Shown here piece by piece: positions 1-48,315 of a DNA stretch of 48,315 bases (its first letter is position 1; each line of letters starts with the position of its first letter). Source of the DNA: Escherichia phage ES; the sequence record OR466728.1. One strand, given 5' to 3'. Below the pieces are notes generated by a model that did no database searches, had not been told where the DNA came from, and saw nothing but the letters and a program-made list of their open reading frames with translations. Position numbers and translations under genes: made by a program.

Positions 1-211
1 GATTAATGGGTCGTAGTTGCAAAAGTTGCACTCAAGAATTTATCGCGTCGGTTACTGCTAAGTCCTCAGAGGAAGCAGTAGCGAAAGTTAAGGTAATGTC
101 TGGTGCCGACCCGGATTACCACAAATTCCTAGTAGCTTACGTTCGTGAGCGAAAGTAAAAGAAGTTCTACTCTCTGTTTGTTTCATATCTCTCGTTGTTG
201 TTCGATACTTC

Positions 212-235
212 GCCCTCTTCTTGAGGGCTTTTTTT
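212..235 (+). terminator. rho-independent terminator
   Basis: 6-bp GC stem GCCCTC/GAGGGC, 5-nt loop, followed by 7 T. Confidence 0.55.
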
Positions 236-246
236 CGTTTGCTATA

Positions 247-255
247 TGATATAAT
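247..255 (+). promoter_or_regulatory. extended -10 promoter element (TGaTATAAT) upstream of packaging genes
   Basis: TG-n-TATAAT about 28 nt upstream of the small-terminase RBS; no clear -35. Confidence 0.35.
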
Positions 256-282
256 GCATCTCTAAACAAAGGAGGTAACAAA

Positions 283-807
283 ATGAAAGACGAAAACTTC
301 ACCAGTCAGGCGCAGGAAAAGGTCAGCTCTGGCAACTTTAAAGCCATGTACAATAAAAAGTACTCAGACATTACAACGCTAGCCAAAAACCGAAGCATGA
401 CACCCGAACAGCTATTTGAATTCGCCGTGAAATACTTCTCATGGGCTGAGGACCAGGCAATCAAGGCAATCGAGACAGCCAGCTTCCAGGGTGTGGTAAA
501 AGAGAGCCTGGTGCACAAACCACGAGTCTTCACGCTAACCGGATTCTGCCTTTACTGCGGCGTCACCCATAGCGCCATCGAGAAATGGAGGAAGTCGGCT
601 GGTTACGATGAGGTGATGGCATTCATTGATTCCGTGATTCGCGAGCAAAAGTACCAGTTAGCAGCGTCCGGCATCATTAACCCTGGCATGATTTCTAAAG
701 AGCTCGGTATCGACAAGCCGCAGGAGATTAACATCACCAGCACATCTTCAGCCAACGACGTCGATACGATGAAAGAGGCGCTCGAATCGGTTATTAGCAA
801 GTTGTAG
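283..807 (+). CDS. terminase small subunit (putative)
   Basis: 174-aa ORF, RBS AAAGGAGG 7 nt upstream, immediately upstream of large terminase; function inferred from position. Confidence 0.5.
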   Translation: MKDENFTSQAQEKVSSGNFKAMYNKKYSDITTLAKNRSMTPEQLFEFAVKYFSWAEDQAIKAIETASFQGVVKESLVHKPRVFTLTGFCLYCGVTHSAIEKWRKSAGYDEVMAFIDSVIREQKYQLAASGIINPGMISKELGIDKPQEINITSTSSANDVDTMKEALESVISKL

Positions 808-6337: not shown

Positions 6338-6390
6338 ATTGCCTTTTATCTGATAGAATGGTAATCACCACAAATAGTCAGGAGATTCAA

Positions 6391-7851
6391 ATGGAGTTAG
6401 TTGAAATCGCTTCAAATAGCTGCGAAGGACTTGAGGCAAAAGCGAAGGCTTTAATGCCATCATTTCAGCCTTATGACAGTATTATTCTGGTAGGTGACTT
6501 GCCAGTCAGGTGTTTAATGGCGTCTGGAACAGACCTAAGCATTACTGATATCAAGTTCCTAACTTTCGGTAGCCGAGCAAGGCTAATCACTGAAATTAAC
6601 AAGATGATTGCTGATGGTTGGGAGATTTTCGGCGAGCCAAAGGCTGACGCAAACAGATTTGGCACAATTATGACCAAAGGCTTTCAGGGCGCTAAGGGTA
6701 CGGCTGGTGTCGCTGGCCCGCAAGGTCCGCAGGGCGTTCAGGGTTTGCAGGGTCCAGAAGGCCCGCAAGGTCCAAAAGGTAATGATGGCGATGATGGTTC
6801 TCAAGGTGAGCGAGGACCACAAGGTCCGCAGGGTATCCGTGGCGAGCAAGGCGTTCAAGGTCCGCAGGGCATCCAGGGGCCAATCGGCTTAACTGGTGAT
6901 ACAGGTCAGCAGGGGCCAGCTGGTCCAACTGGTGCTACTGGTCCTCGTGGACCTCAAGGTGTGCAAGGTGAGGCTGGTCCTGCTGGCGCTACAGGTCTGG
7001 AATTTAAAGGCGCATGGGCTCCAGGTATCGAATACAAAGCAAACGACGCAGTGGCTTATAACGGTTCAACATGGTTTGCTGTGACTGGAAATACAGACGA
7101 GACACCAGGGACGGGAACATCATGGCAGGTAATGGCATCACAAGGTTCTCGCGGACCAGCCGGACCAGAAGGCCCGCAAGGTGATGTTGGCCCGCAAGGT
7201 GAGCAAGGAATTCAAGGACCAATCGGAGCAACTGGACCATCTGGACCTCAGGGCGCAAAAGGTGATACAGGAGACACTGGACCAGCAGGACCAGAAGGAC
7301 CACAAGGTTTAACTGGACCAGCCGGACCGCAAGGCATTCAAGGACCAGCTGGTGTTCGAGGTGCTACTGGTGCAACTGGTGTAAACGGAGCTAATGGCGC
7401 CACAGGACCGCAAGGGCCAGCTGGACCAAATGGTGATTCAGGTCTTAATTACACATATCAGAAATGGTCAAACGTAGCAAATGGCGTTGGGTATGTAACA
7501 ATCCCCGGGATGCCTAATACACAAATAGGAGTTAACAGGAATTCTGCCGGAGCAATTGTGTACACTCTCTATAGTACTGGTGGAACCGTTAGGTATCTTG
7601 ATTGGCGCGCTGAGATACCATCATATGATACAAATGCAATAACCACGGCTGCTGGCACGGCGACAACACCAAGCTCTGCTGGTGTAATAGCAACGATGAA
7701 TACCGTTTTATATAATGGGTTAAGATCAGTCAAATTTATAATTAAGGATTGGGGCGCATCAAGGATTGCTGTAATTGAATGTTACCAACACGGAAGGGCT
7801 AACTCAGACGCGAGGCCTGTTACTATCGAGATGCGCTCATTCTCTTACTAA
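6391..7851 (+). CDS. collagen-like (Gly-X-Y) repeat protein
   Basis: two long uninterrupted G-X-Y tracts (about 6679-6997 and 7141-7453) flanked by globular N- and C-terminal domains; RBS CAGGAG. Confidence 0.8.
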
Positions 7852-7876: not shown

Positions 7877-7904
7877 TTGCTACACCTGAAAACTCGTGTA
7901 TAAT
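7877..7904 (+). promoter_or_regulatory. sigma70-type promoter (TTGCTA -16 nt- TATAAT) for the capsid gene
   Basis: near-consensus -35 and perfect -10 with 16-nt spacer, 38 nt upstream of ATG 7942. Confidence 0.5.
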
Positions 7905-26199: not shown

Positions 26200-28732
26200 A
26201 TGCGAGAGAAACTCTTGAATTTGCAAATATCATGGCATCCCTTTGGTTATCAAACTGCACAACAAAGTAATCAGCAAGACTTAACACCATACCAGTTAGT
26301 CCATCAAGGTTGATATGCAGGTTTGCAGTGCCAGATACTGAAGCCTGAGCAACTCCAAATGTATGAACCCACTTACCGCCCTCAGTGAACACTTTCCCTA
26401 AAGATGCAGTACCAAAAATACTGATAGCACCATCTGCACCACCTTGAATCCTGTTTGCAGAGATACCCCAAACGTACCATTTGCCGGAAGTTATATTAAA
26501 GCCACCATTTATCAATTCGTACTGAGCCGCACCAGCCAATTCGTAGTATCCAGATGATTGCGAGTGTATACCCCTTGTATCAGAACCTTCACTTGCCGAC
26601 CCTGTTCCACCAAAGTTGTTCCCACCAGTACCAAAAGGCCTCCTGACTAAAACAGTTCCGGAATCGGGATTAAAAACTCGACCCTTAGTAACATATCCTC
26701 TAACAGATAAGTCAGATGTACCCGTTATCTTGGCTGTCTGTGATACCAGTGACTCAACTATAACGTTTGATGTTGAAGAGCCATTCAGGTATGCATCCTT
26801 AGCAAAAATAATACTGTTCGAATCAAGAGAGAAACTTTGATGCCCATCAGCGTTATCAAACCTGCAACCGTAAGTAACAAGGTTTGAGTTAGACAACTCA
26901 ATGTTATTAATGTAGGAGTGCTCAGCAAAGAAAACAGACGTATCAATAAGCTTCAAAACCCTTGGTAGCTCAGCACCCTCACCTACGTTAATTGCCCCAC
27001 CAGTCGCTATTGCTTCAAACCATACATTTGACAAACCACAAGGCGAGGTCGGGCAATCTCCAGGTTTATTCTTTAACCTTATACCACCTCCAGCAGAGGC
27101 CTCCATTATTGAATCCCTAATCCACCATCCACCAATCCCTCCAGCACCAGGGTTAGTTGCACTACTTGTGCTTGTCGCATCTAGCATTACTGAATATTGA
27201 GAGATTGTATCTGAGTGGTACCCGTATAAAGTGTCCGCTCCTATATGCATTTCGTCATGAGCTTTGGCTCGATACCCGTAATTCGCATTTCTAATACTTA
27301 CGTTTCTGTAGGTATTTCCAATGTTGCCAGCATTTTTCCTTATACCAACATCCAGGTCATTGAAGTAAAGCCTATCCAATACAACCCTTCCAGCATAAGG
27401 GTCATCCGGGAATTGAAAGCCGTTATTACCTTGTATTGCAGTACCTGTAAACTGCAAATCCGATAAATGCTTTTGCCTCCAGTGCGGAACCGATAGCGTT
27501 GAGGTGAGTCCGGTTTCAAAAGGTTTAACACTTATTACGGTATTATATCCAGAGCCTGATATGTTCCTGCCAGCAAAGGAGTAGTTATTACTCTCATAAG
27601 TTCCCGGGCTTATAACTACCGACCCGCCATCGCCAGCGGCTTCTATTGCTGAAGATATTGAGCCGCTATAGCTTGATGTGCTTTTTGAATCTGTATTTAA
27701 AATTGATGACACCTCACCCTTTGAGTAAACATCAAGGTTGGTTCTTGCCACGGACTTATCTGCAATGTCTGAAAGATTCAATGATTTTTGAAACGTCTCG
27801 GATTTTGAGTAAACATCAAGCAACCCCCTAACCCTTGACGCGCTTGATCCACCAGTTGCAGCATCACCGCCAGGCAAGCTTAGTACTTCCCTTACATAAA
27901 AAACCCTAGATCCAGTCGCACCAGAAATTGTGACATCTGCAATCCTAAAATTTGAGTTTGACCCAGTAGACGGAGATAACCTTAATACTTTAGCCGAATT
28001 AACACCCCTAGTTGCAATAACATCAATACAAATAGGAGTTGTTGAAACCGGAAACATTGAACTAATTTCTTTTGGGGTGTTTAACATATTCCCAGGTGTG
28101 CACTGATAACGACCTCCGGAATAAAATTGCATTGTTTGCCAATCTAAAGAGGTAAGTAATGGCGTTGTCGTGCTACCTATTCCGTGATTAGCAAAGTAAG
28201 CAACAGCCGCTGTATTTCCAGCCGCATTTATTGCTTCAACCGTCCTGTTATATGAATTTTGTGCGTTAGTGCTTGCACCAACTGCGGTCGCTGCACTTTC
28301 AGCAGCAGCAATCTGACTAGCTAACGCCTCCGCAGCTCCGGTAGTTGACTGAGTTGCCAGTTGTTCAAAACGAGGCCAATCAAAAGTATCTTGACCAATA
28401 AATTGCAGTAGACTTTCAATAGAAGTCTCTTTTGACTGGTAGTAACGCAATGTTTCCGCAACATCCTGTGCCAACCCCTGAACAGTAATTCCATCATGAG
28501 CAAGAATTGCGTAACCAGTACCAGCGGGAACAGTTTCAGAACTTGGATTATAAACATTAACCTGAGTATCGCTGATGATTTCAGAGATGGTGTAAATTTT
28601 CAGAGGGCTGGTTTTGAAAATGATAGTAGCACCTACACGAATCAGCGTAAGCGGCGCTTTCCATGTTGTACCGACACCAGTTACCTCTCCATTCGCGGCC
28701 AGTGACGCTGTTCCTAAGTCATAAATTGCCAT
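26198..28732 (-). CDS. tail fibre / tailspike-like protein
   Basis: 844 aa from ATG 28732 (RBS GGAGA; ORF-track start 28762 is GTG); Gly/Ser/Thr/Asn-rich repetitive beta-type composition. Confidence 0.5.
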   Translation of the reverse strand: MAIYDLGTASLAANGEVTGVGTTWKAPLTLIRVGATIIFKTSPLKIYTISEIISDTQVNVYNPSSETVPAGTGYAILAHDGITVQGLAQDVAETLRYYQSKETSIESLLQFIGQDTFDWPRFEQLATQSTTGAAEALASQIAAAESAATAVGASTNAQNSYNRTVEAINAAGNTAAVAYFANHGIGSTTTPLLTSLDWQTMQFYSGGRYQCTPGNMLNTPKEISSMFPVSTTPICIDVIATRGVNSAKVLRLSPSTGSNSNFRIADVTISGATGSRVFYVREVLSLPGGDAATGGSSASRVRGLLDVYSKSETFQKSLNLSDIADKSVARTNLDVYSKGEVSSILNTDSKSTSSYSGSISSAIEAAGDGGSVVISPGTYESNNYSFAGRNISGSGYNTVISVKPFETGLTSTLSVPHWRQKHLSDLQFTGTAIQGNNGFQFPDDPYAGRVVLDRLYFNDLDVGIRKNAGNIGNTYRNVSIRNANYGYRAKAHDEMHIGADTLYGYHSDTISQYSVMLDATSTSSATNPGAGGIGGWWIRDSIMEASAGGGIRLKNKPGDCPTSPCGLSNVWFEAIATGGAINVGEGAELPRVLKLIDTSVFFAEHSYINNIELSNSNLVTYGCRFDNADGHQSFSLDSNSIIFAKDAYLNGSSTSNVIVESLVSQTAKITGTSDLSVRGYVTKGRVFNPDSGTVLVRRPFGTGGNNFGGTGSASEGSDTRGIHSQSSGYYELAGAAQYELINGGFNITSGKWYVWGISANRIQGGADGAISIFGTASLGKVFTEGGKWVHTFGVAQASVSGTANLHINLDGLTGMVLSLADYFVVQFDNQRDAMIFANSRVSLA

Positions 28733-28756: not shown

Positions 28757-28774
28757 TAGCACGAATTGCTAAAG
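28757..28774 (+). promoter_or_regulatory. dyad box copy 6, orphan (plus orientation between two minus-strand genes)
   Basis: exact TAGCACGAATTGCTAAAG; no plus-strand gene or good -10 downstream; overlaps 5' leader of the tail fibre gene. Confidence 0.4.
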
Positions 28775-28797
28775 TTGATTGTAGCATCTTTGAGTCA

Positions 28798-29764: not shown

Positions 29765-29795
29765 TAAAAAAGGATGTACCGATTATGGCACATCC
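29765..29795 (-). terminator. hairpin plus T-run (minus strand) after HTH gene
   Basis: GGATGT/ACATCC stem with 12-nt loop, 6 A on plus strand (T-run on minus). Confidence 0.35.
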
Positions 29796-29801
29796 AATCC
29801 T

Positions 29802-30275
29802 TTACTCTTTAGCTTTTCGTGCTGCTTCGTTAGCGGCCTTAATCTTGCGCCATGATCGACACTCTGGCTTGGTGGCTAGCTCTGCTTCAGTAACTACGCG
29901 AAGCATATGACGCTTCTTACATCGAAGTGTTAGCGGCTTACCGTTTCCGTCGAATTGCAGGTCTGGTCGGCAGAACGTAGCTCGAAATCCTTCCTTATTT
30001 CTCTTATACGCATTGTGAGCTTTCTGCGCTCCTCGAGCCGAAATCATCCCGCGATCAAACCATTGCTCTACAGTCTGGTGAGATACGTTTAACTGCTTTG
30101 CGATGTTCGCCTTTGTTCCATAGAAATCAAGAACCATCTCCAGGCGAGCACGTAGCCCAGCCTTTACCTCATCTTTCAATACGTAGTAGCCTGACGGTCG
30201 TTTGCGTTGCTTCTTGTCTTGTGTGCGTACCGTTCCGTTATTGCCGTTAATAGTTCGTTTGTCAATTTCACACAT
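29802..30275 (-). CDS. HTH DNA-binding protein (candidate transcription regulator)
   Basis: 157 aa, basic, HTH-like GTKANIAKQLNVSHQTVEQWFDRG; RBS GAGG; a dyad box overlaps its 5' region. Confidence 0.5.
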   Translation of the reverse strand: MCEIDKRTINGNNGTVRTQDKKQRKRPSGYYVLKDEVKAGLRARLEMVLDFYGTKANIAKQLNVSHQTVEQWFDRGMISARGAQKAHNAYKRNKEGFRATFCRPDLQFDGNGKPLTLRCKKRHMLRVVTEAELATKPECRSWRKIKAANEAARKAKE

Positions 30276-30288
30276 CTCATTACCTCAA

Positions 30289-30306
30289 TAGCACTTTTTG
30301 TTAAAC
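30289..30306 (+). promoter_or_regulatory. dyad box copy 7 (TAGCACTTTTTGTTAAAC) in divergent region
   Basis: TATTAT about 21-22 nt downstream; helicase ATG 83 nt downstream; 14 nt from the ATG of the divergent HTH gene. Confidence 0.5.
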
Positions 30307-30371
30307 AATAGGTTCGATAATTGATATTATACAGCAATGCAACGAACTAACAAACTGTCAGGATACTTAAA

Positions 30372-33300
30372 ATGCTTCCAGTAGAGCGCTTAGTGGCAAA
30401 CTTTGATCAAGAGAAAATCAAACAGATTCAGAAAGATTACCAGTTTGGAGACATAACTCCTTACGAATTCCAGTGTGTAACATTTGACGCAATTGGTAAG
30501 GCTATTGGTAAGTACGAGGCTCCATTCATCGCAGACCTGTCTGTATCTGCTGGTAAAACAATAATTCTTGCCATGATTGGGAAAAGAATGGAGCAACTTG
30601 GACTTCCTTATATGGTACTGTCTCGCCAGTCAGAGATTATCAGCCAGAACGCAGAGGAACTCCGTAACTTCGGTATCCGTAATAGCGTCTATTGCGCTGG
30701 ACTTAACGTTAAATCAGTTTACTACCCAACCATAGTGGCTAGTGAGGGTACAGCTGCCAATGGCCTGTTTAAGGGGCTTGGTGACTATGTTCCTGCTGTT
30801 ATCGCGATAGATGAGTGCTTAACTGGAGACACGATGATAACCACCGATTCAGGGATGATGAGGATTGATAGCGAAGACCTTATCAATCATAAAATAAAAT
30901 GCATAAACGAAAGCACTGGTGATTACTTCTATCATAAGCCAAAAAGAGTTTTTACTAATGGTGTAAGACATGTATCATCAATTAAATTAGAAAGCGGAGA
31001 GGAAATAAAATGCACGAGTACACACAAACTTTATTCGAACGGCTGCTGGGTAGGAGCGGGAAAACTTCGTATTGGGATGAATCTGTCGCTAGACGGCTCG
31101 CAGGACAAATTTACGAAAAAGCTCCTGCGTGCAAGTGTGGCTGTGGTGAAAAAGTTATGCCGCATTCAAGCAAGGGGTTAGGCGTACTTCTTAAGAACCC
31201 TTTCGATTTCTATTTGGATTACAGAACGGGGCATCATAATTCAACCGTCAACCCATCAATGGAGGTTGATGACTTTTTACATCAAAACATTCTTGCGGCA
31301 ATGGCTGGTGATGGTTGCTTGATTAAAAATACAGAAAAAGGAACGCATAGGCTATCTTGGAATATGGGAAATAAGGAGCACGCACTAAGCAAGGTTGAAA
31401 GGTTTGCAAAACTAAACCCTAGATACAGGGAGAAGAAAAACCCTGGATTTGGCGACAACTGGTTTTGCGTATCAACATCATGTACGAAAGTTCTGGATTC
31501 ATATGCTGATAAGTACGGAAATTCTAAGGATGGTTACGATATTGGAAAGATATGCAGAGAGCTTGATCCAGTTGGTTGGGCTGCTTACTTTGGTGATGAT
31601 GGTCATTGCACTGTAAGCTCAGGGAAGAGGGTTGTAGAAATCCACACCGAATCATTTAGCAGGCGTGAAGTTCAATCAGTAGTTGATGCGCTAATAGCAT
31701 TTATTGCTAATGACGGAGTTAATGTTAGAAGCTATATTGGCGGCAAGAAAAAGAGAGAGCTTTACTCAGTATCAATAACAACGAGGTCGGCACAAGATGA
31801 GTTTTTTAAGAGAATTAGTAAGCACATGGAAAATGGCGTGGAATACAAAATCAAGCAAAATTAAAGACATCTCACCCATTGGCAAGGAACTTGTTTGGGA
31901 TATAGAGATGCCTGAGCACCATAATTTCATTGCTGACGGGGTCGTGGCACATAATTGCCACATGGTGGACCATATGGATATCGTAGAAGCTGAAGAGAAT
32001 GAGGAAACATTCGAGCAGATGAGCACGAAGAAGGGTGAGATGGTCTTTAAGGATGGTGTGAATACCGGGCTTCTTGGCACTGGTCGCGCGCAATACACGT
32101 TAATCATTACCGAAATGAAGCGTCGATGCAAGGAGAAGTACGGTCGCGAACTTCGTATCTTTGGGTTAACTGGTAGCCCGTACCGTAACAACGACCACAT
32201 TGTAGTTAGTAACCCAAATGTCCGTGGATTCTGGCGCAAAACTGTAATGCAAGTGCCAACCAGCTACCTTGTTGACTTGGGGTTCGTTGTTCCTACTGTC
32301 TACGGTGAAGTTGGTGATTTGGGCTACGACCTTAGTGAGTTCACTCCTGATGGAAGTGATGGGGTTAAGGACTTCAGCAAGAAAGAAATGGATGCGATGG
32401 CTGCAAAGATTCACGAAAACCAAACGATGACACAAAAGATAATGGGATTTGCTGCTAGGTTTATGGAAACAAGGAATGCTGCATTGGTAACTTGCGCTGG
32501 CAAACAGCATTGCGAGGAGGCGGCAGCCGCACTTCCAGAAGGTGTTACTTGGGCGATAGTTACCAACTCCACTGGTGATAAGAAGCGTAGAGAGATACTT
32601 GAGAAGGCAGCCAGCGGAGAATATAAGTTCATATTTCAGATTGGTTGCCTCACAACTGGCGTAAACTGCCCCCCGTGGGATACAAGCATTATCCTGAGGA
32701 AGGTTGGTAGCATTACTCTACTCATTCAGTTGCTTGGTCGTGGTATGCGTATCCTTAAGAAGAAGCACAAAGAAGCTGGAATGGTAAAAGATGACCATGT
32801 TGTTCTTGATTTTGCCGGGACGCTTGACGATATGGCAGAACTCTACTTCGACCCAATTATAGAAGAGGTTCAGGACCAGAAGTTTAAGTCATCCAGGAAA
32901 GGGGGTGATGAACCAAGAATTTGCCCAGCATGTTCTTATGAGAATTCTCCTTTCGCACGGCGCTGTAATAATGTGATTGACGGTAAACGATGCGAGCATT
33001 TTTTTCAGTTCCGTCTTTGCGAAGATATTGAGGACCCGCAGACGAAAGTTATCGTTAAGAAAGGTTGCGGAGAGAAAAATGACGTTGCAGCAAAGAACTG
33101 CCGCTGCTGCGGAGAGATGCTGATAGACCCAAATGCAAAGCTATCTGGAAAAATGTATCGGAAAGGGGACTGGTTGAGAGTTTATGACTTCAAGATTGGG
33201 TTGACAAAAAACCAGTCAGGGATCGTTGCTTCATATGAGGTAATGGCTCATAGTGGAGATAAGTTCCGAGCTTATGAAACATTCTTCCCGGAGTCAGACC

Positions 33301-33506
33301 ATCGTGTTTGTTCTGTCAAATGGAAGGCGTTTTGCTCAACTCACATCGAGAACAGGACTGAGGCTTTTAGGATTGGCAGATTGCGTAATGCTAAAATGAT
33401 TATGACAAATGCACATCTTTTCCGTGCGCCGCTAAGGATTACGCACCGCAAGAATCAGAAGTCGCAAGATATTATCGCCAACAAATCATTTACGATGGAG
33501 GATTGA
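30372..33506 (+). CDS. SF2 DExH-box DNA helicase, interrupted by an intein (exteins 30372-30815 and 31956-33506)
   Basis: Walker A SVSAGKT; motif II DE|CH restored on excision; three track ORFs (30372, 31010, 31797) belong to one gene. Confidence 0.75.
30816..31955 (+). mobile_element. intein with LAGLIDADG homing-endonuclease domain (1140 nt, 380 codons)
   Basis: starts CLTGDTMI, block B TSTHKL, LAGLIDADG-like ILAAMAGDGCL and AAYFGDDGHC, ends NFIADGVVAHN before +1 Cys; endonuclease domain is in a different frame. Confidence 0.8.
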
Positions 33507-35192: not shown

Positions 35193-35444
35193 ATGTTGGG
35201 TTTAGATTTTCAGCCGGAGCATTACGATTTAGTATATGGTCAAAGTGGTGCGAAGTTTAGAGCGATACCTATTTCTGACTGGTTTCCTCCTGACTACGTG
35301 GATGTTAATGCGAAGACGAAGGATGGTAAATGGGTACAGATTTACTATTCCCCAGCGTGCGGGAATCTCTGCATGACAGACCTGGACCAGAAATTAGAAA
35401 TTAGTGCAGATTTAATTGATTACTGGTTGAAAGAGGTTGTATGA
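35193..35444 (+). CDS. hypothetical protein
   Basis: 83 aa from ATG 35193, RBS AAGGA. Confidence 0.45.
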   Translation: MLGLDFQPEHYDLVYGQSGAKFRAIPISDWFPPDYVDVNAKTKDGKWVQIYYSPACGNLCMTDLDQKLEISADLIDYWLKEVV

Positions 35445-35515
35445 AGTACACAGCCCTAGTAGCATTAGTACCACTGTTTAGCTTTACTATCTTATATTTT
35501 ATTGTGATGAACTAA
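35441..35515 (+). CDS. hydrophobic micro-peptide (24 aa, putative membrane)
   Basis: MKYTALVALVPLFSFTILYFIVMN; RBS AAGAGG 5 nt upstream; ATGA overlap with upstream stop. Confidence 0.3.
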   Translation: MKYTALVALVPLFSFTILYFIVMN

Positions 35516-35525
35516 GGACTTAAAA

Positions 35526-36659
35526 ATGGCAGCATCAAAGATTACAAATGAACAGCTTATCGAAGAGCTGAAAAGCGGCCTGACTAACAAGGCAATTGCA
35601 GAGAAGTACGGCATGAATATTCGCAACGTTGAGCTTCGTCGCAGTAAGTTGGCTAAGAGTGGTATTGGGCATGGTAATGAAGGTATCAAGAAGCTAGTTC
35701 CTGACGGTTATTTAGTCAAGGGCACCTCAACAATGATTGATGCGGAAGGGAATGAGAAGCTGCGTTGGGTTAAGACTTCGATTGATGCTGAGAAGCAAGA
35801 AGAGATGCTTCAGCAGATTGTTAAGGCTCTTACAGACGAGGTTCCTCGCGAGACTCCAAAGCCACTCAGTGAATCAAGCTATGAAGATACATTGAGTCTC
35901 TACCCTGTATTTGATATGCACATTGGCGCAATGGCTCACCATGCAGAGTGTGGGGAGAACTACAGTACAGAAATTGCAGAGCGAGTGCTTAACCAATACT
36001 TTGATTATGCAGTTGCTAAGGCCCCGAATTCATCAAAAGCCGTATTACTGATTGGTGGAGACTTCCTTCACTCGGATGGAATGGAAGCTGTAACTCCAAC
36101 CAGCAAGCACGTACTTGATCAAGATAGCCGTTATCATAAACTTGTCTACGTAGCTGTTCGTGCAACTCGCCGCGCCGTCAGTAAGATGCTTGACAAGCAT
36201 AAAGAGGTTGAGGTTCAGATTATACCAGGCAACCACGACCTTTCTGGGATGATTTGGCTTCGAGCTGCAATGGCTGCCTTCTACATGGATGAGCCTCGTG
36301 TAAATGTTGATGCCTCACCAGCCGCTCTTCACGTGACGGAGTTTGGTAAAACATTGTTGGGTTACTGCCATGGTCATGAATTGCGAAAGCCTGACACTCG
36401 TCTTTCAACTCTTGCGCGCGACCATCGCAAAGCATTTGGTAATGCTGAATACGTTTATACACATAGTGGCCATTATCATCATCAGACGGTTACTGAGGGT
36501 AATCTTGGAATTGATGAGTCACACGGTCAGTTGGGTGCTAAAGATGCGTACAGCGCAAACGGAGGGTATCGCTCTTATCGTCAGGCCTCAGTAATTATCT
36601 ATAGCTCAGAGTACGGTGAAGTTGGTCGATTCACTTGCCGACCTGAAATGTTTAAGTAA
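35526..36659 (+). CDS. calcineurin-like metallophosphoesterase with N-terminal HTH domain
   Basis: phosphoesterase motifs DMHIG, GGDFLHSD, PGNHD; N-terminal HTH-like LTNKAIAEKYGMNIRNV. Confidence 0.55.
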   Translation: MAASKITNEQLIEELKSGLTNKAIAEKYGMNIRNVELRRSKLAKSGIGHGNEGIKKLVPDGYLVKGTSTMIDAEGNEKLRWVKTSIDAEKQEEMLQQIVKALTDEVPRETPKPLSESSYEDTLSLYPVFDMHIGAMAHHAECGENYSTEIAERVLNQYFDYAVAKAPNSSKAVLLIGGDFLHSDGMEAVTPTSKHVLDQDSRYHKLVYVAVRATRRAVSKMLDKHKEVEVQIIPGNHDLSGMIWLRAAMAAFYMDEPRVNVDASPAALHVTEFGKTLLGYCHGHELRKPDTRLSTLARDHRKAFGNAEYVYTHSGHYHHQTVTEGNLGIDESHGQLGAKDAYSANGGYRSYRQASVIIYSSEYGEVGRFTCRPEMFK

Positions 36660-42787: not shown

Positions 42788-42807
42788 TTCGTTGGATTTA
42801 TCTATTG

Positions 42808-42899
42808 TTGCAGCTATTGCAATGATTATCATGATTATTGCACATATAGCAATATTGCATGGAATGCAATGATGTTTTTGATTGTTGCAGAATTTGCAA
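42808..42899. promoter_or_regulatory. array of four TTGCA-N5-TGCAA palindromic sites (operator- or iteron-like)
   Basis: sites at 42808-42822, 42838-42852 (imperfect), 42855-42869, 42885-42899; spacings 30/17/30 nt. Confidence 0.55.
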
Positions 42900-43028
42900 T
42901 GATTGATGTGGGGTGAATGAATAGTGGATGAACTACCATACAAGTTGATTTTGATTCTTGCTGAGCCAATTTGGATATACACGTTATCGAAGTTATGGTG
43001 TGTATATGAGGTGCGCTTCCGAAGAATC

Positions 43029-43121
43029 ATACACGCCTACCACGCGAGATTACGCAATGGTTACATAATAATATCTATATATATCAACCTTTTACTATAT
43101 TATTATTATTATTATATATAT
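43029..43121. repeat. control-region repeat block 1 (copy B) with (TAT)n microsatellite
   Basis: matches 22911-23000. Confidence 0.6.
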
Positions 43122-43255
43122 GTATGTATATGGTGTAGATTGGTCGTATGGATGGGTCGATAGTTTTTCTATGAAAACTACTAATTTTATCTATATAGAT
43201 ACATATGCATACCCCCGGCGAATCCGCGTAAAATCTTACACAGGGTAATTACACC

Positions 43256-47290: not shown

Positions 47291-47487
47291 TGAATAAAAT
47301 TATTAAGAAAGGCGATGCTATCAAGTGCACAAAGGCAGTATCGGATGACTTCATGGATGGATGCGATTACCAGGTCGAAAAGGTATCGAAGACTGGCCAC
47401 GTATTCTGCTACAGCGATAATGGCGAATTGGTGAGCATTGACTACCCGTATGACCAGAATTATGGGAAATTCGAAAGAGTAAGTTGA
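47287..47487 (+). CDS. hypothetical protein
   Basis: 66-aa ORF, ATGA overlap with upstream stop. Confidence 0.4.
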   Translation: MMNKIIKKGDAIKCTKAVSDDFMDGCDYQVEKVSKTGHVFCYSDNGELVSIDYPYDQNYGKFERVS

Positions 47488-47675
47488 CACATCTAACCCT
47501 GACTGGTACATTAACAACTGTAGACAGACGAGGCCACCAAGTGGCAACGGCGCACGGAGCGCAACACAAAGTCCATAGCTCACTAAGCAGCGTATATGGC
47601 GAAATCGGTCGAGAAACTCGACGCTGGAAGCGTAACCAGCAATCCTTCAATAGCGCAATCGCTACTCAAGGATTT

Positions 47676-47751
47676 GTTCTGCTGGCGTAACAGGATAACG
47701 CAAAGACCTCCTAAGTCTTAGTTACTGGTTCGAGTCCAGTGCGGAACACCA
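47676..47751 (+). tRNA. tRNA-Arg (anticodon CCT)
   Basis: hand-folded cloverleaf: 7-bp acceptor GTTCTGC/GCGGAAC, D-arm GCGT/ACGC with GG loop, anticodon loop CTCCTAA, T-arm ACTGG-TTCGAGT-CCAGT, discriminator A, encoded CCA. Confidence 0.8.
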
Positions 47752-48004: not shown

Positions 48005-48160
48005 CTGCTTCCTCTGAGGACTTAGCAGTAACCGACGCGATAAATTCTTGAGTGCAACTTTTGCAACTACGACCCATTAATCGGATTGAAAGCTTAACAT
48101 CCCAGAGCTGCATTTTTTATCTTCCCGCTCTGATTGCTATAGTTTTGAATTTCTCTTTCA
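48005..48160. other. 156-nt fold-back: reverse complement of the end-to-start junction (probable assembly artefact)
   Basis: 48005-48082 is the exact reverse complement of 1-78; 48083-48160 is the reverse complement of 47929-48004 plus CC. Confidence 0.7.

Positions 48161-48315
<155 letters not shown>

What the first reader, a model, noticed from the sequence alone, without database searches (positions are those of the whole stretch)
30276..30306. Dyad box sits on the 5' end of the HTH-protein gene: candidate autoregulated regulator
Box copy 7 serves the plus-strand helicase gene but lies only 14-31 nt upstream of the ATG (30275) of the divergent minus-strand gene 29802-30275. That gene encodes a basic 157-aa protein with an HTH-like segment. 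A regulator that binds its own leader is a common arrangement, which makes this the first protein to test as the box-binding factor.
Basis: inference. Interest (0 to 1): 0.55.

Follow-up and report, generated by a model that had tools for sequence, protein, structure and literature searches.

The report
Phage promoter box beside regulator gene
In this T1-like coliphage, one copy of the phage's repeated 15-bp promoter box lies directly beside the start of the only recognisable DNA-binding (Cro-like) protein gene, in a shared two-way promoter. That makes the protein a reasonable but unproven candidate for the factor that switches on about 18 phage promoters and shuts off its own.

Summary
The window is Escherichia phage AN_ECEAS, a T1-like phage (Drexlerviridae).

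**Observation: confirmed.**
- The box TAGCACTTTTTGTTA lies at 30289-30303, 13 nt from the ATG (30275) of a basic (pI 10.2) 157-aa gene.
- The gene encodes a Cro-like helix-turn-helix (HTH) protein.

**What the box is.**
- It is the upstream element, centred near -42, of the helicase promoter.
- That promoter is one of 18 near-identical phage promoters: box, 22 nt, extended -10, CATCGAAAC start.
- The repeat itself is already published for phage TLS, with function unknown.

**New here.**
- The helicase promoter shares a symmetric -10 (TATTATA) with a sigma70-type promoter for the HTH gene (TTGTTA-16-TATAAT). The two form a bidirectional promoter, conserved in about 37 of 41 lineages.
- A second, inverted box sits at +1 of the tail-fibre promoter, an operator-like position.

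- This is the only recognisable regulator in the phage.
- It is present in 830 phage records.
- A homologue co-occurs with box promoters in an unrelated myovirus genus.

**Against.**
- The HTH helices are the most variable well-folded part of the protein, yet the box is invariant everywhere.

**Verdict.** The protein is a plausible activator and autorepressor (about 0.4). It is unproven and of moderate interest.

The parts
30289..30303 (+). Box copy 7, TAGCACTTTTTGTTA. It is the dyad-like core (TAGCA-N5-TGTTA) of the 21-nt family repeat aaATAGCACnnnTTGnTAAAA. Predicted position is about -48 to -34 of the helicase promoter and about +16 to +32 of the regulator transcript.
   Evidence: TLS repeat consensus in PMC11447400
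30322..30331 (.). Shared symmetric -10 region TGATATTATA. The + strand reads TG-a-TATTAT (30325-30330, helicase direction). The - strand reads TATAAT (30331->30326, regulator direction).
   Evidence: This is the only one of the 18 box promoters in the window with a perfect opposite-strand TATAAT.
30348..30353 (-). -35 hexamer TTGTTA of the sigma70-type promoter of the 157-aa gene. A 16-nt spacer separates it from TATAAT, giving 10 of 12 consensus matches.
   Evidence: equivalent promoters in relatives (up to TTGTCA-16-TATAAT, 11/12, in Webervirus)
30335..30347 (+). Start-site motif CAATGCAACGAAC, a variant of the family CAtCgAAAC motif. The predicted helicase TSS is about 30336-30337.
   Evidence: the motif lies 5 nt after the -10 in 574 aligned family promoters
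30283..30286 (-). RBS GAGG of the 157-aa gene, lying between the box and the ATG
29802..30275 (-). 157-aa basic protein of phrog_2856. It has a conserved basic N-arm (DKRTINGNNG...), a Cro-like HTH (helices at about 54-61 and 65-74), the conserved RGMIS loop, and a conserved C-terminal FCRPDLxFDxNGK domain of unknown fold.
29772..29795 (-). Terminator-like hairpin followed by a T run, directly after the 157-aa gene and before the primase gene
30372..31181 (+). N-terminal half of the helicase gene served by box copy 7. An intein interrupts it at the DExH motif.
28757..28771 (-). Second operator-like box, read TAGCAATTCGTGCTA on the minus strand. It starts 6 nt downstream of the tail-fibre promoter's -10, at about +1 to +15, and lies 25 nt upstream of the tail-fibre ATG (28732). 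It has no -10 in its own orientation.
28778..28786 (-). Extended -10 TGcTACAAT of the tail-fibre gene promoter, just after the primase terminator (28819->28806)

Best explanation
The box at 30289-30303 is the upstream element, centred near -42, of the helicase promoter. That promoter is one of 18 stereotyped phage promoters that lack a -35 hexamer: box, 22 nt, (T)GnTATAAT-like -10, CATCGAAAC start.

In this 96-bp region the helicase promoter shares a symmetric -10 (TATTATA) with a sigma70-type promoter (TTGTTA-16-TATAAT) that drives the 157-aa gene in the opposite direction. The predicted starts are about 15-18 bp apart. This is a bidirectional promoter.

The model runs as follows.
1. Host RNA polymerase first transcribes the 157-aa gene from its own -35/-10 promoter, with no phage factor needed.
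2. The Cro-like protein then binds the dyad boxes, probably as a dimer. The half-sites lie 10 bp centre to centre.
3. From about -42 it recruits RNA polymerase to the box promoters, as a class II activator does.
4. At its own locus this turns the shared -10 toward the helicase and places the protein at about +16 to +32 of its own transcript. Its own synthesis falls through polymerase competition and/or a roadblock.
5. The inverted box at +1 of the tail-fibre promoter would be repressed by the same protein.

Shown by sequence: the promoter architecture, the bidirectional layout, their conservation, and the HTH fold. Inferred: that this particular protein is the box reader, its dimeric state, and both the activation and the autorepression.
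For: - Motif enrichment is strong.
- The spacing is rigid. It is 21-23 nt, and exactly 22 in 14, in 18 window promoters whose genes start 56-68 nt after the box. The same architecture appears in 706 unique family promoters, 574 of them with 22-nt spacing. These carry G at -14 and no -35.
- The regulator's sigma70 promoter has a -10 ending 22-23 nt from the box in about 37 of 41 distinct lineages.
- Published rules for bidirectional promoters say an activator of one direction represses the other through polymerase competition (PMC12825309).
- Operator-like inverted boxes lie downstream of two sigma70-type promoters, the regulator's and the tail-fibre's. The tail-fibre case is conserved in many lineages. 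This argues that a protein binds the box.
- The protein has a Cro-like HTH fold.
- No other regulator was recognised among about 40 ORFs.
- A homologue is present in 830 phage records.
- A homologue co-occurs with 9 box promoters in the unrelated myovirus AAM37 (Dibbivirus). There it and an 82-aa protein are the only non-enzymatic early proteins shared with this phage, and the 82-aa family is confined to close relatives.
Against: - The HTH helices are the most variable well-folded segments. Entropy is about 1.8, against about 0.9-1.0 for the N-arm, the RGMIS loop and the C-motif. No invariant residue lies in aa 44-74.
- Even among relatives at 75% identity or more, 8 of 11 positions in helix 2 and 7 of 13 in the turn plus helix 3 vary, against 4 of 27 in the C-motif.
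- The recognition helix reads HQTVEQW here, CRLTNAY in Vc1-like phages and FSGVRSW in AAM37. The box is the same in all three.
- No covariation could be found between protein and box.
- AAM37 has no box at its regulator-helicase intergenic region.
- Repression of a tail-fibre gene by a general activator is biologically awkward.
- No binding, dimer or transcript data exist. The TLS paper leaves the repeat's function open.
Confidence: 0.4

Rival explanations
1. Something else reads the box: an unrecognised phage protein, or a composite of RNA polymerase with a phage adaptor. The 157-aa HTH protein would then have a different, lineage-variable target, such as the replication origin or another operator, or a role in the helicase-primase replication module. 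The box lies next to its ATG only because the helicase promoter and the regulator promoter are packed into 96 bp.
For: - The HTH is hypervariable while the box is invariant.
- The gene always sits between helicase and primase, even in Dibbivirus.
- Lineage-specific iteron plus AT-rich regions exist. They follow the primase in Webervirus and L046, and lie at 42800-43200 in the window.
- AAM37 has box promoters but no box at its regulator locus.
- Many small phage ORFs have no assignable fold.
Against: - No other DNA-binding candidate is shared by all box-bearing phages.
- The regulator-helicase intergenic sequence does not co-vary with the HTH. L006 carries the L007-type HTH but a window-type intergenic region.
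- The DUF3987 helicase next to the iterons is the more usual kind of origin binder.
- My iteron survey was uninformative.
Confidence: 0.3
2. No dedicated factor exists. The box is a cis element read by host RNA polymerase itself, a UP-like or displaced -35-like contact that boosts extended -10 promoters. The HTH protein is irrelevant to it.
For: - The box is invariant across phages of Escherichia, Klebsiella, Pantoea, Citrobacter and Vibrio and across two phage groups, as expected for a target as conserved as RNA polymerase.
- Its right half TTGCTA resembles a -35 hexamer. It is used as a true -35 with a 16-nt spacer at the capsid promoter, 7877-7904.
- The promoters have extended -10 features that lessen the need for a -35.
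- A-tracts flank the core.
Against: - TTGCTA lies 22 nt from the -10, about 5 bp and half a helical turn too far for sigma region 4.
- The core has near-100% conserved G3, C4, A5 and G12 and is not A/T-rich like UP elements.
- Inverted boxes at +1 to +30 of two sigma70 promoters have no role in this model.
Confidence: 0.12
3. The boxes are 'stoperator'-like roadblocks, as in mycobacteriophage L5, or processing or termination signals at gene ends. They are not promoter elements.
For: - The boxes lie between genes and are oriented with transcription, often overlapping the upstream stop codon. The TLS authors raised this idea.
- Two copies lie inside 5' leaders.
- Some 22-nt spacers contain terminator hairpins.
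Against: - The fixed 22-nt distance to a -10 and to a conserved start motif in hundreds of promoters is a promoter signature.
- The phage is virulent, with no repressor or integrase module.
- The TTGTTA variants weaken any RNA hairpin.
Confidence: 0.05

Closest known systems
21-nt direct repeats of phage TLS (aaATAGCACnnnTTGnTAAAA), also noted in T1, Rtp and Rogue1 (PMC11447400)
   Same: It is the same sequence element with the same orientation relative to transcription, about 76 nt upstream of start codons. TLS DR11 lies directly next to gp57 'transcriptional regulator' and upstream of the gp58 helicase, as here.
   Different: The paper leaves the function open (stoperator, enhancer or UP element). 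In the text read (no occurrence of 'transcriptional regulator') it does not connect the repeats to gp57, and I saw no mention of the fixed spacing to an extended -10 or of the shared bidirectional -10.
Lambda cI at OR2: activates PRM from about -42 while repressing divergent PR
   Different: - Here the site is used at about 18 promoters genome-wide in a virulent phage.
- The divergent promoters share one -10 rather than lying 80 bp apart.
- The sign of autoregulation is opposite: the protein would shut off its own gene.
- There is no evidence of cooperativity or of sigma contact.
Phage Mu Mor and C; T4 MotA/AsiA; lambda CII (phage activators of -35-less promoters)
   Same: Small phage-encoded DNA-binding proteins that replace -35 recognition at a whole class of phage promoters. 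Mor and C bind a dyad at about -43.5. These comparisons are from my own knowledge.
   Different: - No sequence or fold relationship to Mor/C, MotA or CII was found in the searches.
- The MotA box is centred at -30.
- CII binds direct repeats TTGC-N6-TTGC around -35.
- Here one box type precedes early, DNA-metabolism and late genes alike, so it is not an obvious temporal class.
Bacterial bidirectional promoters with symmetric -10 elements (Grainger lab; PMC12825309)
   Same: Overlapping TATTAT and TATAAT on opposite strands, predicted starts about 15-18 bp apart, and mutually exclusive polymerase binding. An activator for one direction represses the other.
   Different: Here it is predicted from sequence only. 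One arm is a phage box promoter and the other encodes the candidate activator itself.

Membership tests
Cro/cI-type (P22 Cro-like, all-alpha) HTH DNA-binding domain | Sequence match to the family profile above the curated threshold | tested here: inconclusive
   Pfam P22_Cro scores 23.2 bits against a cut-off of 30.2. YdaS scores 20.4 against 30. The profile against PDB finds Xfaso-1 Cro at E 0.014.
Cro/cI-type (P22 Cro-like, all-alpha) HTH DNA-binding domain | Four- to five-helix fold with helix-turn-helix | tested here: met
Cro/cI-type (P22 Cro-like, all-alpha) HTH DNA-binding domain | Homodimer binding a dyad operator | not testable with these tools
   Only single-chain prediction was available. 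The box half-sites TAGCA and TGCTA are 10 bp centre to centre, which is compatible with a dimer.
Class II-type transcription activator site | Site centred near -41.5 and overlapping the -35 region of a promoter lacking a -35 hexamer | tested here: met
   Box, then 22 nt, then the -10, puts the box centre at about -42. There is no conserved sequence at -35 to -30 other than AAA. G is conserved at -14. Positions are relative to predicted, not mapped, starts.
Class II-type transcription activator site | Activator-dependent transcription and contact with sigma region 4 or alpha | not testable with these tools
   This needs in vitro transcription and genetics.
Autoregulated regulator (binds its own promoter or leader) | Cognate site overlapping its own promoter or early transcribed region | tested here: met
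   The box lies about +16 to +32 from the predicted regulator start and the -10 is shared with the activated promoter. This holds in about 37 of 41 lineages.
Autoregulated regulator (binds its own promoter or leader) | The protein binds that site; reading-head residues conserved with the site | tested here: not met
   Binding itself is untestable here. The proxy fails: the recognition helix is hypervariable while the box is invariant.
Bidirectional promoter (symmetric -10) | -10 hexamers on both strands overlapping, offset by 1 nt, with divergent starts about 18 bp apart | tested here: met
   TATTAT at 30325-30330 (+) and TATAAT at 30331-30326 (-). The starts are predicted only.
Stoperator (mycobacteriophage L5 type) | Asymmetric sites inside transcription units bound by the prophage repressor of a temperate phage | tested here: not met
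   The phage has a virulent T1-like genome with no repressor or integrase module annotated or found. The sites have fixed promoter geometry.
UP element | A/T-rich -40 to -60 sequence read by the alpha-CTD in the minor groove | tested here: not met
   The core is TAGCAC..TTGC with nearly invariant G and C positions. Only the flanks are A-tracts.
Sigma54 promoter (TGGCAC-N5-TTGCW) | GG and GC dinucleotides exactly 10 bp apart, with the start about 12 nt downstream | tested here: not met
   The box is TAGCAC-N3-TTGC, 2 bp shorter and with AG instead of GG. The conserved -10 and start motif lie 22-35 nt downstream.

The most novel reading that the evidence does not exclude
The invariant box is not read by the HTH recognition helix at all. 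Instead, the strongly conserved parts of the protein (the basic N-arm, the RGMIS loop and the FCRPDLxFDxNGK domain of unknown fold) would dock on host RNA polymerase and create a composite reader for a '-42 element'. That would be a T1-family form of promoter re-specification, functionally like T4 AsiA/MotA sigma appropriation but built on a Cro-like scaffold. The fast-evolving HTH surface would be free to diverge or would serve another purpose.
Probability: 0.12. Interest if true: 0.75.

Novelty: new member of a known kind. Interest (0 to 1): 0.45.

Why it matters
T1 is a classic coliphage, and its relatives appear in hundreds of phage genome records, many from phage-therapy isolates. Yet how they direct host RNA polymerase is unknown, and a 2024 reannotation of TLS left the function of the 21-nt repeats open.

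This analysis gives a testable circuit: about 18 promoters with a -42 box, and one sigma70-driven Cro-like protein sitting in a bidirectional switch with the helicase promoter. If confirmed, it would explain genome-wide transcription in Drexlerviridae. It would also supply a compact activator-promoter pair for synthetic biology.

The mismatch between a hypervariable HTH and an invariant box is a caution. It could point to a less conventional mechanism.

Tried and rejected
1. **TTGCTA as an ordinary -35.** Rejected. The spacer to the -10 is 21-23 nt, and 22 nt in 14 of the 18 window promoters and 574 of the 706 family promoters. No alternative -10 lies at 16-18 nt.
2. **Sigma54 promoter or T4 MotA box resemblance.** Rejected on spacing and position.
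3. **Protein-box covariation.** I looked in Webervirus, the Tlsvirus Stevie, the Vibrio Vc1 group and Dibbivirus for lineages with a different box. The box is the same everywhere, so no positive covariation can be shown. The test turned into evidence against the HTH reading the box.
4. **Lineage-specific operator in the regulator-helicase spacer.** There is no covariation with the HTH.
5. **HTH protein as origin or iteron binder.** Iteron-like regions exist, but a k-mer cluster survey across loci was uninformative. I did not pursue this further.
6. **Alternative box-binder candidates.**
   - Pfam and PHROG scans of about 40 ORFs found none.
   - The 82-aa protein shared with AAM37 is confined to close relatives, with 24 clusters.
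7. **RNA-level role for the box hairpin.** This is disfavoured by the fixed DNA spacing and by the TTGTTA variants.
8. **Literature.** No transcript mapping or binding study for T1-like phages turned up.
9. **Tool limits.** The AFDB fold library was unavailable. The C-terminal domain found no structural match in PDB.

Full report
**Identity of the window.** The window is 100% identical to Escherichia phage AN_ECEAS (PP944860.1; Drexlerviridae, Braunvirinae), a T1-like siphovirus. In that record the 157-aa ORF is annotated as a hypothetical protein. In related records it is called a (putative) transcriptional regulator.

**The observation.**
- TAGCACTTTTTGTTA lies at 30289-30303 (+).
- The minus-strand ORF 29802-30275 starts 13 nt away, with its RBS GAGG (30286-30283) in between.
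- The motif TAGCAC-N3-TTGCTA gives 32 matches with at most 2 mismatches, counting both strands. That corresponds to about 19 real sites. The expectation is 4.9, and no shuffle in 100 reaches 32.
- The protein is basic, with pI 10.2.
- It matches phrog_2856 'transcriptional regulator' at 8e-84 and gives sub-threshold Pfam HTH hits on aa 42-81.

**What the box is.**
- In 18 of 21 window copies, a -10-like hexamer follows 21-23 nt after the box (22 nt in 14).
- In most of these a gene on the same strand starts 56-68 nt after the box.
- I collected 706 unique promoters of this type from 80+ related loci, and aligned the 574 with 22-nt spacing.
- The conserved pattern is AAATAGCAC-(G/T)(A/T)(A/T)-TTG(C/T)TAAAA, then 17 unconstrained nt, then G-n-TATAAT, then 5 nt, then CAtCgAAAC.
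- The unconstrained spacer often holds the terminator hairpin of the upstream gene.
- The box therefore spans about -49 to -35 and is centred near -42.
- Nothing resembling a -35 hexamer sits at the correct distance, and the -10 has an extended-type G at -14.
- The core is a dyad, TAGCA-N5-TGCTA, with half-sites one helical turn apart. The element as a whole is directional: C6 and T10 break the symmetry, position 13 varies, and A-tracts lie on the same strand on both sides.
- This geometry fits a dimeric activator bound in a class II-like position. It does not fit a -35 hexamer, a UP element, a sigma54 promoter or a T4 MotA box.

**Prior knowledge.** The repeat is already published. Phage TLS has 21 copies of aaATAGCACnnnTTGnTAAAA, and the repeat was also noted in T1, Rtp and Rogue1. 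Its function is stated as unknown, with stoperator, enhancer site or UP element offered as options (PMC11447400). In TLS, DR11 (35841-35861) lies next to gp57 'transcriptional regulator' (35224-35832) and upstream of the gp58 helicase. The term 'transcriptional regulator' does not occur in that paper's main text, so it does not appear to connect gp57 with the repeats. I found no transcript mapping or binding study for this phage family.

**The local control region (new here).**
- On the minus strand there is a sigma70-type promoter, TTGTTA (30353-30348), 16 nt, TATAAT (30331-30326), matching 10 of 12 consensus positions.
- It is one of only eight promoters of that quality in intergenic DNA in the whole window.
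- Its -10 overlaps the helicase promoter's TATTAT (30325-30330). The sequence TATTATA therefore serves both strands.
- The predicted starts are about 30336 (+) and about 30320 (-), which is 15-18 bp apart.
- No other box promoter in the window has a perfect opposite-strand TATAAT.
- The layout is conserved. In about 37 of 41 distinct lineages, the best sigma70-like promoter on the regulator strand has its -10 ending 22-23 nt from the box. These lineages include Rogunavirus, Tlsvirus, tuna-like phages and Webervirus. Webervirus reaches TTGTCA-16-TATAAT, 11 of 12.
- This is the 'bidirectional promoter' architecture described in E. coli. There, polymerase binding in one orientation excludes the other, and an activator of one direction represses the divergent RNA (PMC12825309).
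- The box lies at about +16 to +32 of the regulator transcript.
- A terminator-like hairpin (29795-29772) follows the gene.

**A second operator-like box.**
- The tail-fibre gene (ATG at 28732, minus strand) has an extended -10, TGcTACAAT (28786-28778), just after the primase terminator.
- An inverted box (28771-28757) begins 6 nt after that -10, at about +1 to +15.
- In its own orientation this box has no -10.
- The same arrangement recurs in many lineages: terminator, TGnTATAAT, 6-12 nt, inverted box, RBS, ATG. It is not present in all.
- Two consequences follow. First, the box behaves as a protein-binding site that can sit in repressor positions, which speaks against a purely polymerase-read element. 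Second, 'a box on the 5' end of a gene' is not unique to the HTH gene, so adjacency alone does not single out that gene's product as the binder.

**The protein.**
- A profile-based AF2 model is confident, with mean pLDDT 90.
- Its layout is: a poorly ordered basic N-terminus; a short strand at 30-32; helices at 34-51, 54-61, 65-74 and 79-92; and a well-predicted C-terminal domain at 95-156.
- The C-terminal domain has no PDB counterpart.
- Homologues occur in 830 phage records, essentially all T1-like.
- Homologues also occur in the myovirus genus Dibbivirus (AAM37, PSKM, DIBBI), as a roughly 100-aa form lacking the N-arm.
- AAM37 carries 9 box promoters of the T1 type in its early region.
- Apart from replication, recombination and head proteins, AAM37 shares only this regulator and an 82-aa protein with the window phage.
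- The 82-aa family is restricted to close relatives.
- No other regulator-like domain was found in about 40 ORFs of the window.
- By elimination and co-occurrence, the 157-aa protein is the best available candidate.

**The main objection.**
- The box is invariant in every lineage examined, including the most divergent Vibrio Vc1 group and Dibbivirus.
- Yet the HTH helices are the least conserved well-folded part of the protein. Mean column entropy is about 1.8, against about 0.9-1.0 for the N-arm, the RGMIS loop and the FCRPDLxFDxNGK motif. No invariant residue lies between aa 44 and 74.
- The recognition helix reads HQTVEQW here, (P/R)QAVEEW in close relatives, CRLTNAY in Vc1-like phages and FSGVRSW in AAM37.
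- Even among homologues at 75% identity or more, 8 of 11 positions in helix 2 and 7 of 13 in the turn plus helix 3 vary, against 4 of 27 in the C-motif.
- A master regulator reading an invariant site would normally keep its base-contacting residues.
- Three explanations remain:
  - contacts come from conserved elements outside helix 3;
  - the protein has another, variable target;
  - the protein acts mainly through protein-protein contacts.
- I found no lineage-specific operator co-varying with the HTH in the regulator-helicase spacer.

**Verdict.** The box is the -42 element of the helicase promoter within a conserved bidirectional switch that also drives the HTH gene. I put it at about 0.4. 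The main rivals are that another factor reads the box (about 0.3) and that host polymerase reads it alone (about 0.12). The kind of system, a phage HTH activator and autorepressor, is known. The family is uncharacterised, and the link to the published repeats seems to be new. Interest is moderate.

Noticed in passing
window 30372-33506: An intein 'fractures' the helicase gene inside its DExH motif.
- ORF 30372-31181 ends ...AIDE followed by CLTGDT..., which is the intein N-part, then a stop codon.
- A LAGLIDADG endonuclease ORF (31010-31864) lies in another reading frame.
- ORF 31797-33506 begins with the intein C-part ...VVAHN followed by CHMVD, which is the extein.
- The uninterrupted Rogue1 helicase reads AIDECHHID.
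This is either a split intein with a free-standing homing endonuclease or two frameshift errors in the assembly.
   Followed up: partly
window 31695-31738: A box-like promoter lies inside the endonuclease ORF: TAGCATTTATTGCTA with TATATT 23 nt later. It is about 90 nt upstream of the ATG (31797) of the C-terminal helicase half. It could express that half separately.
   Followed up: no
window 28757-28786: The tail-fibre gene has an extended -10 promoter (TGcTACAAT) with an inverted box starting 6 nt downstream, at about +1. The arrangement is conserved in many T1-like lineages. It implies repression, or some other control, of a structural gene by the box-binding factor.
   Followed up: partly
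window 42800-43200: This is a probable replication origin. A cluster of TTGCA/ATTGCAAT repeats lies at 42808-42900, followed by a strongly AT-rich stretch at 43060-43130, at the divergence point of leftward and rightward transcription units. Webervirus and one other lineage have analogous iteron plus AT-rich regions, with different repeats, just after the primase gene.
   Followed up: partly
window 47676-47751: A tRNA-Arg (anticodon CCU) gene lies here. A sigma70-like promoter (TTGACA-17-TACATT, 47484-47512) sits about 165 nt upstream of it.
   Followed up: no
window 7877-7904: The major capsid gene has an ordinary sigma70-type promoter, TTGCTA-16-TATAAT. Its -35 is identical to the right half of the box, but no left half is present. 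This is one of the few box-independent promoters in the genome.
   Followed up: no
window 6685-7416: Collagen-like GXY triplet repeats lie within ORF 6358-7851, which is annotated as a putative tail fibre protein.
   Followed up: no
L209 (Pantoea phage AAM37) 32331-46360 and 30735-30887: A myovirus of another group (Dibbivirus) carries 9 T1-type box promoters in its early region, plus a short homologue of the regulator between helicase and primase. Its regulator-helicase intergenic region has no box. Instead it has a palindrome, CTATCCAGATAG.
   Followed up: partly
window 1-309 and 48007-48315: The two ends of the window repeat the same roughly 309 nt of the phage genome, so the window is a permuted copy. 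The GenBank record itself repeats about 75 nt at its two ends.
   Followed up: no
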